Origin: Deltaproteobacteria bacterium
GTDB lineage: Bacteria > Desulfobacterota > GWC2-55-46
Direction of reading: 5' to 3'
Assembly (NCBI GenBank): GCA_015075075.1
Contig: JABTVA010000003.1
Span: 38,619 to 102,618, forward strand
Length of the DNA: 64,000 nucleotides
Shown here: positions 42,147 through 44,703 of the stretch, one piece after another
Numbering within the stretch: the stretch's first letter is position 1
Layout of the letters: each line of letters begins with the position of its first letter
Program-made: the position numbers and the translations under genes
Notes under the pieces: model-generated
What the model was told of the DNA's origin: nothing
Seen by the model: the letters and a program-made list of their open reading frames with translations, nothing else
Database searches by the model: none

Positions 42147-42182
42147 TGCAATCGGTTAATCTCCCCTGCCCCCTTGTATAAT

Positions 42183-42367
42183 GCTTGAGTAACGCCTTAC
42201 GTTAATAGATATTGATATCCATACGCAACAGGATGTGACAGCCCGTCTTCCCTGGTCGCAGGAGGCCGTTAAAGAGCGTGTGGCGTCGCATCCATTCCTT
42301 AATGAGCCTGAACAGTTGTCAGGGCCAAAGCCCGCATCAGCAAGGCCGGGACAGAAAAGGAGGAACT
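42183..42367 (+). ncRNA. Candidate IS110-type guide (bridge/seek-like) RNA in the left non-coding arm
   Basis: Non-coding, downstream of TATAAT 42177-42182. Stems by eye: 42190-42194/42200-42204, 42231-42239/42285-42293, 42251-42254/42259-42262, 42307-42311/42319-42323. Loop motifs match the target and the element end (see findings). Confidence 0.45.
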
Positions 42368-43309
42368 GTGGTGAAGCGTGAATGTTTTATCGGTATAGAC
42401 GTCTCCTGCGCGTATCTGGATATGGCTGTGCCGCCCACCGGAGAGCGCTGGAGAAGCCCAAACGACGAACCCGGAATAGCATCGCTCGTAAATCGGCTGT
42501 TGGACCCAGCCCGCTCTTGTAGTTCGAAGCTACGGGCGGGTTCGAAGCACCGGTTGCCGGCGCAATGGCAGCTGCTTGCCTGCCTCTGGCAGTTGTCAAT
42601 CCTCGCCAGGTCAGGGACTTCGCCAAAGCCACAGGAGGCTTGCAAAACGGACGCCCTGGATGCCGTCATCCTCGCAAGATTCGCAGAAGCCGTGCGTCCC
42701 GATGTTCGACCTCTGCCGGACGCTGATGCACAGGAACTGGCTGCCTTGCTTCAGAGAAGGCGACAGATCATCGAGATGCTCGTCGCCGAAAAGAACCGCC
42801 TCTGTTCTTCTCATAGCAGCGCATCAGCAAATCCATCAAACGAAATATCGACTGGCTTGAAAACAATTGGCCGAGGTCGATGGAAACCTCGCCGATACTA
42901 TCCGCAAAAGCCCCTCTGGCGCGAAAAAGGACAACCTTCTTAAAGCGCCCGGGCGTGGACCAGTGCTCGCAGTCACCTTGCTGGCCGACCTGCCGGAGCT
43001 TGGAAGCCTGACGCGCAAACAGATTGCCGCCTTGATTGGTGTGGCACCGCTCAACCGGGACAGCGGGACCTGCGCGGTAAACGCACTATCTGGGGCGGAC
43101 GTGCCAACGTAAGGCAGACGTTGTACATGAGCGCCCTCGCCGCCACGCGTCATAACCCGGTCATACGAGACTTCTACGAACGCCTCCGGGTGGCAGGCAA
43201 ACCAGGCAAGGTCGCCCTTATAGCCTGTATGCGAAAACTCCTTACAATTCTCAATGCAATGTTGAAACATCAAATGCCCTGGAAAGAAAATTTTATCCAA
43301 ACTGCTTGA
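42368..43309 (+). pseudogene. IS110-family transposase (DEDD N-domain plus Transposase_20-like C-domain), frame broken
   Basis: VVKRECFIGIDVS.., (shift) LEATGGFE-type segment, KTDALDAVILARFAEAVRPDVRPLP..EMLVAEKNRL, (shift) [40 protein letters not shown], (shift) [38 protein letters not shown]. Confidence 0.8.
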
Positions 43310-43311
43310 CA
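43306..43311 (+). promoter_or_regulatory. Outward-facing -35 hexamer (TTGACA) at the IS right end
   Basis: TTGACA overlaps the transposase stop, 13 nt from the element end. Same at 44685-44690 in copy 2. Pairs with TATAAT at the left end if the ends are joined. Confidence 0.55.
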
Positions 43312-43324
43312 CCGAACACAGTTG

Positions 43325-43420
43325 CTCTTTAGGAAAGAGGGGGAACCCATTTAATTCCTGCTTGCCTTCAATCTCCCCCTTTCCTAAAGGGGGATGAAGG
43401 GGATTATAAATGAATGCGTT
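43325..43420. repeat. Family-C repeat (right half of the IS-interrupted hairpin plus CCCCCTTTCCTAAAGGGGG module)
   Basis: CTCTTTAGGAAAGAGGGGG...TCCCCCTTTCCTAAAGGGGGATGAAGGGGATTATAAATGAATGCG. Confidence 0.65.
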
Positions 43421-43431
43421 ATGATACTGCC

Positions 43432-43522
43432 GTCATTGCGAGGGACTTTAGTCCCGAAGCAATCTCATGCACTTTACGGAAATATGTGAGATTGCCACGG
43501 CGCTGAAGCGCCTCGCAATGAC
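43432..43522. repeat. Family-B hairpin repeat
   Basis: Differs from 42056-42146 at one position (GCCACGG vs GCCGCGG). Confidence 0.75.
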
Positions 43523-43550
43523 TGCAATCGGTTAATCTCCCCTTTCCCCT

Positions 43551-44703
43551 TGTATAATGCTTGAGTAACGCCTTACGTTAATAGATATTGATATCCATAC
43601 GCAACAGGATGTGACAGCCCGTCTTCCCTTGGTCGCAGGAGGCCGTTAAAGAGCGTGTGGCGTCGCATCCATTCCTTAATGAGCCCGAACAGTTGTCAGG
43701 GCTTAAAGCCCGCATCAGCAAGGCCGGGACAGAAAAGGAGGAACTGTGGTGAAGCGTGAATGTTTTATCGGCATAGACGTCTCAAGGCGTATCTGGATAT
43801 GGCTGTGCTGCCCACCGGAGAGCGCTGAGAAGCCCAAACGACGAACCCGGAATAGCATCGCTCGTAAATCGGCTGTTGGGACCCAGCCCGCTCTTGTAGT
43901 GCTCGAAGCTACGGGCGGGTTCGAAGCACCGGTTGCCGGCGCAATGGCAGCTGCTTGCCTGCCTCTGGCAGTTGTCAATCCTCGCCAGGTCAGGGACTTC
44001 GCCAAAGCCACAGGAGGCTTGCAAAACGGACGCCCTGGATGCCGTCATCCTCGCAAGATTCGCAGAAGCCGTGCGTCCCGATGTTCGACCTCTGCCGGAC
44101 GCTGATGCACAGGAACTGGCTGCCTTGCTCCAGAGAAGGCGACAGATCATCGAGATGCTCGTCGCCGAAAAGAACCGCCTCTGTTCTTCTCATAGCAGCA
44201 TCAGCAAATCCATCAAACGAAATATCGACTGGCTTGAAAACAATTGGCCGAGGTCGATGGAAACCTCGCCGATACTATCCGTAAAAGCCCCTCTGGCGCG
44301 AAAAGGACAACCTTCTTAAAAGCGCCCGGGCGTAGGACCAGTGCTCGCAGTCACCTTGCTGGCCGACCTGCCGGAGCTTGGAAGCCTGACGCGCAAACAG
44401 ATTGCCGCCTTGGTTGGTGTGGCACCGCTCAACCGGGACAGCGGGACTCTGCGCGGTAAACGCACTATCTGGGGCGGACGTGCCAACGTAAGGCAGACGT
44501 TGTACATGAGCGCCCTCGCCGCCACGCGTCATAACCCGGTCATACGAGACTTCTACGAACGCCTCCGGGTGGCAGGCAAACCAGGCAAGGTCGCCCTTAT
44601 AGCCTGTATGCGAAAACTCCTTACAATTCTCAATGCAATGTTGAAACATCAAATGCCCTGGAAAGAAAATTTTATCCAAACTGCTTGACACCGAACACAG
44701 TTG
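43551..44703 (+). mobile_element. IS110-family insertion sequence, copy 2 (1153 bp)
   Basis: Same ends: ..TTTCCC-CT-[TGTATAATG....ACAGTTG]-CT-CTTTAAAAAAGAGGGGG. Direct orientation, 226 bp after copy 1. Confidence 0.8.
43746..44688 (+). pseudogene. IS110-family transposase, copy 2; frame broken at positions different from copy 1
   Basis: MVKRECFIGIDVS.., ALVVLEATGGFEAPVAGAMAAACLPLAVVNPRQVRDFAKATGGL.., AKTDALDAVILARF.., [74 protein letters not shown]. Confidence 0.8.

What the first reader, a model, noticed from the sequence alone, without database searches (positions are those of the whole stretch)
42175..44703. Two IS110-family copies inserted at the same CT core in the stem of a palindromic host repeat
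Comparing the IS flanks with uninterrupted copies of the host repeat (..TAATCTCCCCTGCCCC-CT-CTTTA(A/G)GAAAGAGGGG..) gives exact boundaries. The element starts at TGTATAATG (42175 and 43551) and ends at ACAGTTG (43324 and 44703). CT is present on both sides, so it appears duplicated from the single CT in intact repeats. There are no terminal inverted repeats, the 5' arm is 193 nt and the 3' arm is 15 nt. This is the IS110-group layout, and IS110-family elements are known to target REP-like palindromes. Both copies are in direct orientation, 226 bp apart. Each is preceded by a nearly identical family-B hairpin. So the arrangement arose either by two independent site-specific insertions into neighbouring repeat units, or by a 1377-bp tandem duplication (42049-43425 versus 43426 onward). 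The right-hand flanks are much more diverged than the IS, which favours independent insertions.
Basis: partly seen in the sequence, partly recalled or inferred. Interest (0 to 1): 0.65.

Follow-up and report, generated by a model that had tools for sequence, protein, structure and literature searches.

The report
Two bridge-RNA IS110 insertions in neighbouring hairpins
Two copies of one RNA-guided "jumping gene" of the IS110 family inserted separately into two neighbouring copies of a small hairpin repeat in an uncultured sludge bacterium; this is an ordinary, previously unnamed member of a well-understood kind.

Summary
Copies at 42175-43324 and 43551-44703 are the same IS110-group element. 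It has no inverted ends, a roughly 199-nt left end and a 15-nt right end. CT lies on both sides, and there is a single CT in empty sites.

A third copy at another locus and about 75 relatives share the ends ...ACAGTTG|CT|TGTAT... An IS-free sister strain carries both target units empty and in tandem. The pair therefore arose by two independent site-specific insertions, not by a 1377-bp duplication.

The left end encodes a bridge RNA built like that of IS621.
- **Target loop:** LTG UCUUCCCCU and RTG UUAAAGAG, which specify TTCCC-CT-CTTTA. Site B matches this perfectly, and site A has one mismatch plus one wobble.
- **Donor loop:** ACAGUUGU and AU..G-CAAG, which match the element's own ends.
- **Junction promoter:** joining the right and left ends creates a perfect TTGACA-17-TATAAT promoter.

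Across relatives, guides covary with flanks (p≈1e-30).

The many frameshifts in both window copies are almost certainly long-read assembly errors. Short-read contigs of the same strain give one intact consensus at about 6 copies per genome.

Verdict: a new member of a known kind, of low to moderate interest.

The parts
42052..42150 (.). Host 'family-B' long imperfect hairpin (40-nt arms) upstream of copy A. It is not part of the IS.
   Evidence: Inverted repeat I6. The same hairpin is found with an uninterrupted target at 46254-46388.
42153..42174 (+). Left half of target repeat A (TAATCTCCCCTGCCCC), ending in the CT core at 42173-42174.
   Evidence: When rejoined to 43327 onward it refolds as a hairpin.
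42175..43324 (+). IS copy A. It is 1150 nt in the window; the error-free consensus is 1162 nt.
42177..42182 (+). TATAAT -10 box of the split junction promoter, copy A.
   Evidence: Sequence. No -35 partner is found in the integrated state.
42232..42292 (+). [quoted passage not shown] The parts are: outer stem; LTG about 42246-42253 (UCUUCCCCU in the consensus, shortened here by assembly deletions); inner hairpin 42254-42267; RTG UUAAAGAG 42269-42276; handshake CG 42277-42278.
42303..42353 (+). Donor-binding loop, copy A. The parts are: LDG ACAGUUGU 42312-42319; inner hairpin 42321-42334; RDG AUCAGCAAG 42336-42344; handshake GC 42345-42346.
   Evidence: The comparison with IS621 uses PMC11208158.
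42371..43309 (+). Recombinase gene of copy A (DEDD/RuvC-like domain plus Tnp domain). The reading frame is broken in the window by indels that short-read contigs do not support.
43306..43311 (+). TTGACA -35 box in the right end of copy A. After circularisation it lies 17 nt from the TATAAT.
   Evidence: Sequence.
43325..43345 (+). Right CT core (43325-6) and right half of target hairpin A (CTTTAGGAAAGAGGGGG).
43346..43427 (.). Remainder of the 226-bp spacer, made of host repeat material including a second small hairpin (CCCCCTTTCCTAAAGGGGG).
   Evidence: D10. A short-read contig covering 43313-43455 at single-copy depth links IS A, the spacer and the next B hairpin.
43428..43526 (.). Second family-B hairpin, upstream of copy B.
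   Evidence: I8.
43529..43550 (+). Left half of target repeat B (TAATCTCCCCTTTCCC), ending in the CT core at 43549-43550. TTCCC-CT is a perfect match to the LTG.
43551..44703 (+). IS copy B (1153 nt in the window). Its features are: -10 box 43553-43558; TBL 43608-43669 (RTG 43646-43653); DBL about 43680-43731 (LDG 43689-43696, RDG 43714-43722); recombinase gene 43749-44688; -35 box 44685-44690.
44704..44724 (+). Right CT core (44704-5) and right half of target hairpin B (CTTTAAAAAAGAGGGGG).
   Evidence: A short-read contig covering 44681-45500 at single-copy depth confirms the junction.
40876..40910 (+). Unoccupied copy of the target repeat (TGCCC-CT-CTTTA, hairpin intact).
46354..46388 (+). 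Unoccupied copy of the target repeat, preceded by a family-B hairpin. The right target differs (CTCTTAGG).
48321..48355 (+). Unoccupied copy of the target repeat (GCCCC-CT-CTTTA, the same as site A).
49628..49662 (+). Unoccupied copy of the target repeat (TGCCC-CT-CTTTA).

Best explanation
An unnamed IS110-group insertion sequence is present at about six copies per genome in an uncultured 'Deltaproteobacteria' MAG from wastewater or sludge. The consensus is 1162 bp plus one CT.

It inserted twice, independently, into the CT core in the 5' arm of two adjacent copies of a REP-like hairpin repeat.

Inferred mechanism, by homology with IS621:
1. The element excises as a circle.
2. The right-end/left-end joint creates a perfect sigma-70 promoter (TTGACA-17-TATAAT).
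3. That promoter drives a roughly 180-nt bridge RNA encoded in the left end.
4. The RNA's target-binding loop (LTG UCUUCCCCU, RTG UUAAAGAG) pairs with both strands of TTCCC-CT-CTTTA in the host hairpin.
5. Its donor-binding loop (ACAGUUGU and AU..G-CAAG) pairs with the element's own joint, ACAGTTG-CT-TGTAT.
6. The DEDD/Ser recombinase exchanges strands at CT.

Shown here:
- The anatomy and boundaries.
- A single CT in empty sites.
- Empty tandem units in a sister strain.
- Guide-target and guide-donor complementarity.
- Covariation of guides with flanks across the clade.
- An intact recombinase in the population consensus.

Inferred only: circle formation, RNA expression and catalysis.
For: **Protein**
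- The read-through protein hits PF01548 (1.3e-24) and PF02371 (1.4e-19).
- An intact 315-aa form, P0001 (MBE7413892.1), is 99% identical.
- It aligns end to end with the IS621 recombinase 8WT6 (8.7e-37) and ISCro4 9T56. D10, E54, D96, D99 and S234 sit at the catalytic positions (PMC11208158).

**Boundaries and core**
- A third copy, L001, has a different left flank but the same joints.
- 78 of the 83 sequences examined (the two window copies and L001 included) gave a boundary pair of the form ACAG(T/C)(T/C)G|CT|TGTAT; a few of these left ends are doubtful.
- The IS unitig runs only 5 nt (CCCCT) and 7 nt (CTCTTTA) beyond the element before branching. All copies therefore share that target core.

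**Independent insertion**
- In X16, a 502-nt contig joins 42069-42172 to 44704-45000 with 2 ambiguous letters.
- Also in X16, a 235-nt contig joins 43445-43548 to 43325-43455.
- The IS depth is 0 in X16 and X19.

**The tandem arrangement is real**
- Single-copy-depth short-read contigs cover 43313-43455 and 44681-45500.

**Bridge RNA**
- The fold shows a 5' stem-loop plus two stem-loops with internal loops.
- In a 35-sequence alignment, 17 of 28 pairs show compensatory changes.
- The spacing between LTG and RTG is a constant 25-27 nt.
- Own-flank guide score is 13.1/16 against 9.9 for non-cognate flanks (Mann-Whitney p = 1e-30).
- Per-position matching is 0.9-1.0 over LT -5..-1, the core and RT +1..+5.
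- The handshake positions fit the IS621 rules.

**Promoter**
- No promoter is predicted at the integrated left end.
- The joint gives a 12/12 consensus by direct reading.
Against: - No direct evidence of a circular intermediate or of the RNA. All runs are held only as contigs, and no RE-LE joint was seen.
- In the window, both copies have broken reading frames and a shortened LTG. If those changes were real, these two copies would be inactive.
- Site A and the L001 site do not match the LTG perfectly at positions -5 and -4.
- Several equally good targets in the window are unoccupied.
- The IS-free strain could in principle have lost both copies by precise excision rather than never having had them. 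That would still exclude the duplication model.
Confidence: 0.85

Rival explanations
1. A 1377-bp tandem duplication (42049-43425 copied to 43426 onward) of one occupied repeat unit produced the second copy.
For: - The left flanks (B hairpin plus left target half) are 123/126 identical, closer than other B hairpins in the window, which are 83-92% identical.
- Seven deviations from the consensus are shared by both copies.
Against: - The IS-free strains X16 and X19 already carry two adjacent units, with the spacer between them and both targets empty.
- Identity drops from about 100% to about 75% exactly at the right IS boundary.
- The shared deviations are homopolymer deletions of the kind found throughout this assembly.
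Confidence: 0.04
2. One true insertion, followed by host homologous recombination or gene conversion that copied the IS from the occupied unit into the neighbouring empty unit, using the B hairpin as homology.
For: There is 126 nt of near-identical homology on the left. Tandem repeats are prone to conversion.
Against: - Homology on the right is only about 20 nt and imperfect.
- Site B is a perfect 12/12 match to the guide-encoded target, as expected for a guided insertion.
- Both joints are exact at CT.
Confidence: 0.07
3. The tandem pair is an assembly artefact: a single IS was duplicated by an error-prone long-read assembler.
For: The window has 2-3 indels per kb against short-read contigs, and more inside the IS.
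Against: Two different right junctions (IS to spacer, and IS to the 44704 flank) exist as short-read contigs at single-copy depth in the same runs. The spacer continues into a B hairpin. No empty site B is seen in X1-X3.
Confidence: 0.03
4. Both window copies are genuinely decayed pseudogenes that can no longer move on their own.
For: There are multiple frameshifts in both copies.
Against: - Against the consensus, copy B has 9 deletions and 1 substitution. Copy A has 18 gap positions and 9 substitutions.
- None of these is supported by any short-read contig in four runs whose flanks are identical to the window.
- Unique DNA in the window shows the same excess of gaps.
- No indexed run holds the variant 31-mers.
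Confidence: 0.12

Closest known systems
IS621 (E. coli), the IS110-group bridge recombinase system (Durrant et al. 2024, PMC11208160; Hiraizumi et al. 2024, PMC11208158)
   Same: - A DEDD/RuvC-like plus Tnp recombinase with the catalytic D, E, D, D and S.
- A long left end and a short right end.
- A CT core.
- A REP-type hairpin target.
- A promoter split between the right end (-35) and the left end (-10).
- A left-end RNA with a 5' stem-loop, a target loop and a donor loop.
- A nearly identical donor: ...AT-CT-TGTAT in IS621, ACAGTTG-CT-TGTAT here.
- The RDG pattern AU-xx-G-CAAG, an 8-nt LDG, and handshake positions that pair with the non-cognate DNA.
- Natural targets that are not a perfect match to the LTG.
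   Different: - The protein is only distantly related (phmmer E = 8.7e-37).
- The effective guide geometry in this clade is 5 + CT + 5, i.e. a shorter LTG contribution and a 7-8-nt RTG. IS621 uses 7 + CT + 2.
- The LDG pairs with the core C through a U:G wobble.
- The host and the target repeat are different.
ISPpu10 and ISPpu9 (Pseudomonas putida), REP-targeting IS110 elements (bioRxiv 10.64898/2026.03.19.712850; Tobes & Pareja 2006, cited in PMC11208160)
   Same: Insertion into many copies of one conserved intergenic stem-loop repeat, with several copies per genome.
   Different: - In ISPpu10 the stem-loop is a GC-rich 5' extension next to the paired target. Here the core lies inside the 5' arm of the hairpin.
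- A structural requirement was not tested here.
- Across the clade, hairpin targets are not general.
ISMno7-family IS110-like elements (the closest named relative in annotated plasmids)
   Same: An IS110-group recombinase with a full-length match.
   Different: Only 53.6% amino-acid identity. By the usual ISfinder practice this element would get a new name. That practice is my own knowledge; ISfinder itself could not be searched.

Membership tests
IS110 family, IS110 group (bridge recombinase elements) | Recombinase with an N-terminal DEDD/RuvC-like domain (PF01548) and a C-terminal Tnp domain (PF02371) | tested here: met
   (87.2 and 70.7 bits, both above the curated cut-offs). Full-length alignment to the IS621 and ISCro4 structures.
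IS110 family, IS110 group (bridge recombinase elements) | Catalytic D-E-D-D tetrad and catalytic Ser conserved | tested here: met
   D10, E54, D96, D99 and S234 of P0001 align with IS621 D11, E60, D102, D105 and S241 (residues named in PMC11208158).
IS110 family, IS110 group (bridge recombinase elements) | No terminal inverted repeats, and a long left with a short right non-coding end (the reverse of IS1111) | tested here: met
   The left end is 199 nt and the right end 15 nt. The termini TGTATAATG... and ...ACAGTTG are not inverted copies of each other. The group criterion comes from PMC11208160.
IS110 family, IS110 group (bridge recombinase elements) | Conserved core dinucleotide (CT) at both joints, and a single copy in the empty target | tested here: met
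   The empty-site contig has 2 ambiguous letters at the joint.
IS110 family, IS110 group (bridge recombinase elements) | Left end encodes a structured RNA: a 5' stem-loop plus two stem-loops with internal loops | tested here: met
   Predicted fold. Consensus structure of 35 relatives, with compensatory changes in 17 of 28 pairs. Expression was not tested. No Rfam family matches.
IS110 family, IS110 group (bridge recombinase elements) | Target-loop guides complementary to both strands of the target, and donor-loop guides complementary to the element's joint | tested here: met
   The LTG and RTG specify TTCCC-CT-CTTTA(A). Site B matches 12/12, L001 11/12, and site A 10/12 plus a wobble. LDG ACAGUUGU and RDG AU..G-CAAG match ACAGTTG-CT-TGTAT. 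Clade-wide covariation gives p = 1e-30.
IS110 family, IS110 group (bridge recombinase elements) | Promoter reconstituted at the RE-LE joint of the excised circle | tested here: met
   TTGACA (43306-11) + 13 nt + CT + TG + TATAAT (42177-82) gives a 17-nt spacer and a 12/12 match, by sequence only. No promoter is predicted in the integrated state.
IS110 family, IS110 group (bridge recombinase elements) | Circular double-stranded intermediate and RNA-dependent recombination | not testable with these tools
   Only assembled contigs of the runs are held, and no RE-LE joint contig was seen. This needs PCR and recombination assays.
REP-like host repeats as IS targets | Short, intergenic, multi-copy palindromic repeat, with the insertion at a fixed position in it | tested here: met
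   At least six copies lie between 40.8 and 49.7 kb, all with 9-10-bp stems. All three known insertions are at the same CT. Whether the repeat is a REP in the strict sense (with a RAYT/TnpAREP partner) was not tested.

The most novel reading that the evidence does not exclude
This recombinase clade spans Nitrospirota, Dehalococcoidia, Methylomirabilota, Gemmatimonadota and this deltaproteobacterial MAG. It keeps an almost invariant donor (ACAGTTG-CT-TGTAT).

It may use a re-balanced target loop, 5 + CT + 5 rather than IS621's 7 + CT + 2.

In a sub-group that includes this element, the loop has converged on the C-rich 5' arm of host CCCCTC...GAGGGG hairpins. The hairpin itself may then act as a second, structural specificity layer, as proposed for ISPpu10.

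The natural perfect site (B) and the mismatched sites (A, L001) would then be a ready-made test set for mismatch tolerance.
Probability: 0.25. Interest if true: 0.45.

Novelty: new member of a known kind. Interest (0 to 1): 0.3.

Why it matters
This is a clean natural example of bridge-RNA-guided insertion. It offers an intact consensus element, decoded guides, three occupied sites of graded match quality, several unoccupied sites, and IS-free sister strains that preserve the empty sites.

It adds one more compact recombinase and RNA pair with a long RTG to the catalogue of candidates for programmable recombination.

It is also a caution. IS 'pseudogenes' and copy-to-copy divergence in uncorrected long-read MAGs can be pure assembly error.

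It does not change current understanding of IS110 biology.

Tried and rejected
- **Rfam:** no bridge-RNA family matched at gathering or permissive thresholds. The only hit was a chance match to sX15 on the wrong strand, E = 0.14.
- **Source genome:** the GTDB genome scan did not contain it. The best relative is 69% identical, so other copies from the same genome could not be tabulated from assemblies.
- **JGI metagenome contigs:** an exact search for the IS left end found nothing.
- **Window-specific variants:** the 31-mer index holds none of them (0 runs, only 3 sampled words, weak).
- **Flanks of every copy:** laying contigs on the two IS ends to list them gave only branch depths. There are 3 left and 3 right branches, consistent with about 6 copies, but few flank sequences.
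- **Hairpin targets as a clade-wide rule:** not supported. Mean MFE is -5.7 for sites against -6.0 for controls, p = 0.81. Only 16 of 58 sites have the core in a stem.
- **A flank-derived promoter for the integrated left end:** none was found.
- **Dating by copy divergence:** abandoned once the window proved error-prone.
- **Alternative LTG register for site A:** shifted by one (CUUCCCCUU) it gives 7/9. I considered it but did not adopt it, because clade geometry fixes the register.
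Full report
**1. The observation**

Reading 41800-45100 confirms every coordinate in the finding.
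- The element starts with TGTATAATG at 42175 and 43551, and ends with ACAGTTG at 43324 and 44703.
- CT precedes and follows each copy.
- The copies are direct and 226 bp apart.
- The stop codon lies 15 nt from the right end.

The two copies align over their full length.

Upstream, 126 nt are 123/126 identical between the two sites. This stretch is a long imperfect 'B' hairpin plus the left half of the target repeat.

Downstream, identity falls to about three-quarters, with a 13-nt indel, exactly at the IS boundary.

Rejoining each pair of flanks restores a 9-10-bp stem with a 3-nt loop (CCCCCTCTTT/AAAGAGGGGG). Uninterrupted copies at 40.9, 46.4, 48.3 and 49.6 kb have the same hairpin. CT lies in the 5' arm.

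**2. What the element is**

Reading through the frameshifts gives a 316-aa protein with the two Pfam domains of IS110 transposases.

The protein database holds an intact 315-aa version, P0001 (MBE7413892.1). It is 99% identical, is labelled 'MAG: Deltaproteobacteria bacterium', and sits on a 318-kb contig.

P0001 aligns end to end with the solved bridge recombinases IS621 and ISCro4. D10, E54, D96, D99 and S234 occupy the catalytic positions (residues from PMC11208158).

The closest named relative among annotated plasmids is the ISMno7 family, at 53.6% identity. The element is therefore unnamed.

The long left end, short right end and absence of inverted termini place it in the IS110 group, not in IS1111 (criterion in PMC11208160).

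**3. Independent checks of the boundaries**

- A short-read contig carrying P0001 (L001) is a third insertion. A GGDEF-type gene lies upstream, and the joints are the same...CCCCTGCCC-CT|TGTATAATG and ACAGTTG|CT-CTTTA.
- Eighty related loci from GTDB genomes (57-69% amino-acid identity, several phyla) were fetched. Most share the termini ACAG(T/C)(T/C)G|CT|TGTAT while their flanks differ.
- In short-read contigs of the same strain, the IS is one 1174-nt unitig. It extends only 5 nt (CCCCT) and 7 nt (CTCTTTA) beyond the element before the graph branches. All copies therefore share that target core.
- The unitig's depth is about six times that of the flanks: 64 against 9-11, 313 against 50, and 82 against 13.

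**4. Duplication or two insertions?**

The deciding data come from runs X16 and X19. They hold a related strain (flanks about 97% identical) in which the IS is absent, with depth 0.
- One X16 contig joins 42069-42172 directly to 44704-45000. Two letters fit either side, which means a single CT.
- Another X16 contig joins 43445-43548 to 43325-43455. That is B hairpin, target and spacer running on into the next B hairpin.
- X19, X13 and X9 show similar empty joints.

Both repeat units, the spacer between them and the near-identity of their left halves therefore predate the IS. A 1377-bp duplication of an occupied unit is excluded. Two site-specific insertions are the simplest account.

The tandem arrangement itself is real. 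Single-copy-depth short-read contigs cover IS A's right end through the spacer into the B hairpin (43313-43455), and IS B's right end into its flank (44681-45500), in the same runs.

Gene conversion from one unit to the other cannot be strictly excluded. It would have only about 20 nt of imperfect homology on the right.

**5. How it works**

A 35-sequence alignment of relatives keeps this architecture. Compensatory changes occur in 17 of 28 predicted pairs, mostly in the outer stem of the first module.

I mapped the IS621 rules onto it (PMC11208160; PMC11208158). Under those rules the LTG equals the top strand of the left target plus the core. The RTG is the reverse complement of the core plus the right target. 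The LDG and RDG do the same for the donor joint.
- **First loop (target):** it reads ...CG-UCUUCCCCU-U-[GGUCGCAGGAGGCC]-G-UUAAAGAG-CG... UUAAAGAG is the exact complement of CT-CTTTAA.
- **Second loop (donor):** it carries ACAGUUGU. That is the right end ACAGTTG plus the core C, read through a U:G wobble. It also carries AU-CA-G-CAAG, the same discontinuous pattern with which IS621 reads CT-TGTAT.
- **Handshake positions:** the nucleotides after each right guide are C, G and G, C. They can pair with position 7 of the non-cognate DNA (donor G, target C) but not with the cognate one, as the IS621 handshake rule requires.

Across relatives, the LTG-like and RTG-like matches lie a constant 25-27 nt apart.

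A locus's own flanks score 13.1 of 16 against its guides. Non-cognate flanks score 9.9 (Mann-Whitney p = 1e-30).

Per position, matching is 0.9-1.0 for LT -5 to -1, the core and RT +1 to +5, and near random outside that range. This clade therefore effectively reads 5 + CT + 5.

For this element the encoded target is TTCCC-CT-CTTTA.
- Site B (TTCCC-CT-CTTTA) is a perfect match.
- The L001 site (TGCCC) has one mismatch.
- Site A (GCCCC) has one mismatch and one U:G wobble.

IS621 behaves similarly. Its commonest natural target differs from its guide at one position.

At least four targets of equal quality in the window are empty.

Joining the right end to the left end gives TTGACA-CCGAACACAGTTGCTTG-TATAAT, a perfect sigma-70 consensus with a 17-nt spacer. 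No promoter is predicted at the integrated left end. This is the split-promoter logic described for IS621.

Circle formation, RNA expression and catalysis are inferred. They were not observed.

**6. The frameshifts are probably not real**

Against the short-read consensus, the two copies differ as follows.

| Copy | Gaps | Substitutions |
|---|---|---|
| B | 9 single-base deletions | 1 |
| A | 18 gap positions | 9 |

- Seven deletions are shared by both copies, most of them in homopolymer runs.
- No short-read contig in four runs whose flanks are identical to the window supports any of these variants.
- No indexed run holds the variant words (weak).
- Unique DNA from 20 to 40 kb also differs from the same contigs mainly by single-base gaps, at about 2-3 per kb with gaps outnumbering substitutions.

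The window is therefore an uncorrected long-read-type assembly, and its errors are concentrated in the tandem repeat. Copy-to-copy differences cannot be used for dating. The apparent loss of one or two bases in the LTG of the window copies should not be read as reprogramming.

**7. Comparison and novelty**

In mechanism and membership this is an IS110-group bridge-recombinase element. Every defining feature that sequence analysis can reach is met.

It differs from IS621 in four ways:
- distant protein sequence;
- a shorter effective LTG and a longer RTG (longer natural RTGs are already noted in PMC11208160);
- a wobble at the LDG core position;
- a different host repeat.

Targeting of REP-like hairpins is known for IS621, ISPpu9 and ISPpu10.

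I tested whether hairpin targets are general in this clade, and they are not. A subset does sit in very similar C-rich/G-rich hairpins: L019, L029 and its relatives, L077, L081 and this element.

**8. Verdict**

This is a new member of a known kind, with interest about 0.3.

Noticed in passing
window 20000-39999 (and the whole window): The window differs from short-read contigs of the same strain mainly by single-base gaps, at about 2-3 per kb, with gaps outnumbering substitutions. It behaves like an unpolished long-read assembly. Frameshifts and short ORFs anywhere in it are unreliable.
   Followed up: partly
window about 23400-26060: This segment is absent from run X1 (depth 0) and strongly divergent in X2 and X3 (52 substitutions and 113 gaps over 6 kb). 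It lies next to the tRNA genes at 26290-26487 and has no ORF of at least 150 aa. It looks like a strain-variable segment, possibly an integrated element.
   Followed up: no
window 377-490, 17407-17547, 35435-35573, 53713-53786: A roughly 140-nt repeat bounded by the inverted repeat GCAACCTCTAAAAATT...AATTTTTAGAGGTTGC occurs four times, 17-18 kb apart. Short-read depth there is about 35 times single copy, so it is a high-copy MITE-like element. The fourth copy abuts a tRNA at 53821-53905.
   Followed up: partly
window 40870-49750: The intergenic regions here are built from a recurring set of modules. These are the long B hairpin, the target hairpin, a second hairpin (CCCCCTTT..AAAGGGGG) followed by ATGAAGGGGGATTATA, and a TAATGATGCGCGGAGCGCACCC tail. 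They recur at about 1.3-kb spacing between genes.
   Followed up: partly
runs X2/X3, contig of 119 nt laid at window 44681-44710: The last 30 nt of this contig are the IS right end plus CTCTTTA, but the preceding sequence is host repeat (GGGGATCTGTAATGGTGCGCATAGCGCACC...) rather than IS. It may be a solo right-end remnant elsewhere in the genome.
   Followed up: no
L081:640-1990 (MAG 'bacterium WY2.bin9'): A 60%-identical relative sits in a very similar hairpin, CCCCTTGCCC-CT-CTTTATAGAGGGG, with LTG AUUGCCCCU. This is either convergent or inherited targeting of the same kind of repeat in another organism.
   Followed up: partly
L038, L042, L050, L054 (Dehalococcoidia / Nitrospirota MAGs): Relatives insert into CGTCAT(T/C)-CT-GAGCG(C/T)(C)AGCGAAG(A/G)AT. 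This is another widespread small palindromic repeat, and its left part resembles the start of this window's B hairpin (CGTCATTGCGAGG...).
   Followed up: no
window 50971-50980: TGCCCCTCTTTA, the same 12-mer as the occupied L001-type target, occurs outside the repeat family and without a hairpin, and it is unoccupied. It would be a natural control for any structural requirement.
   Followed up: no
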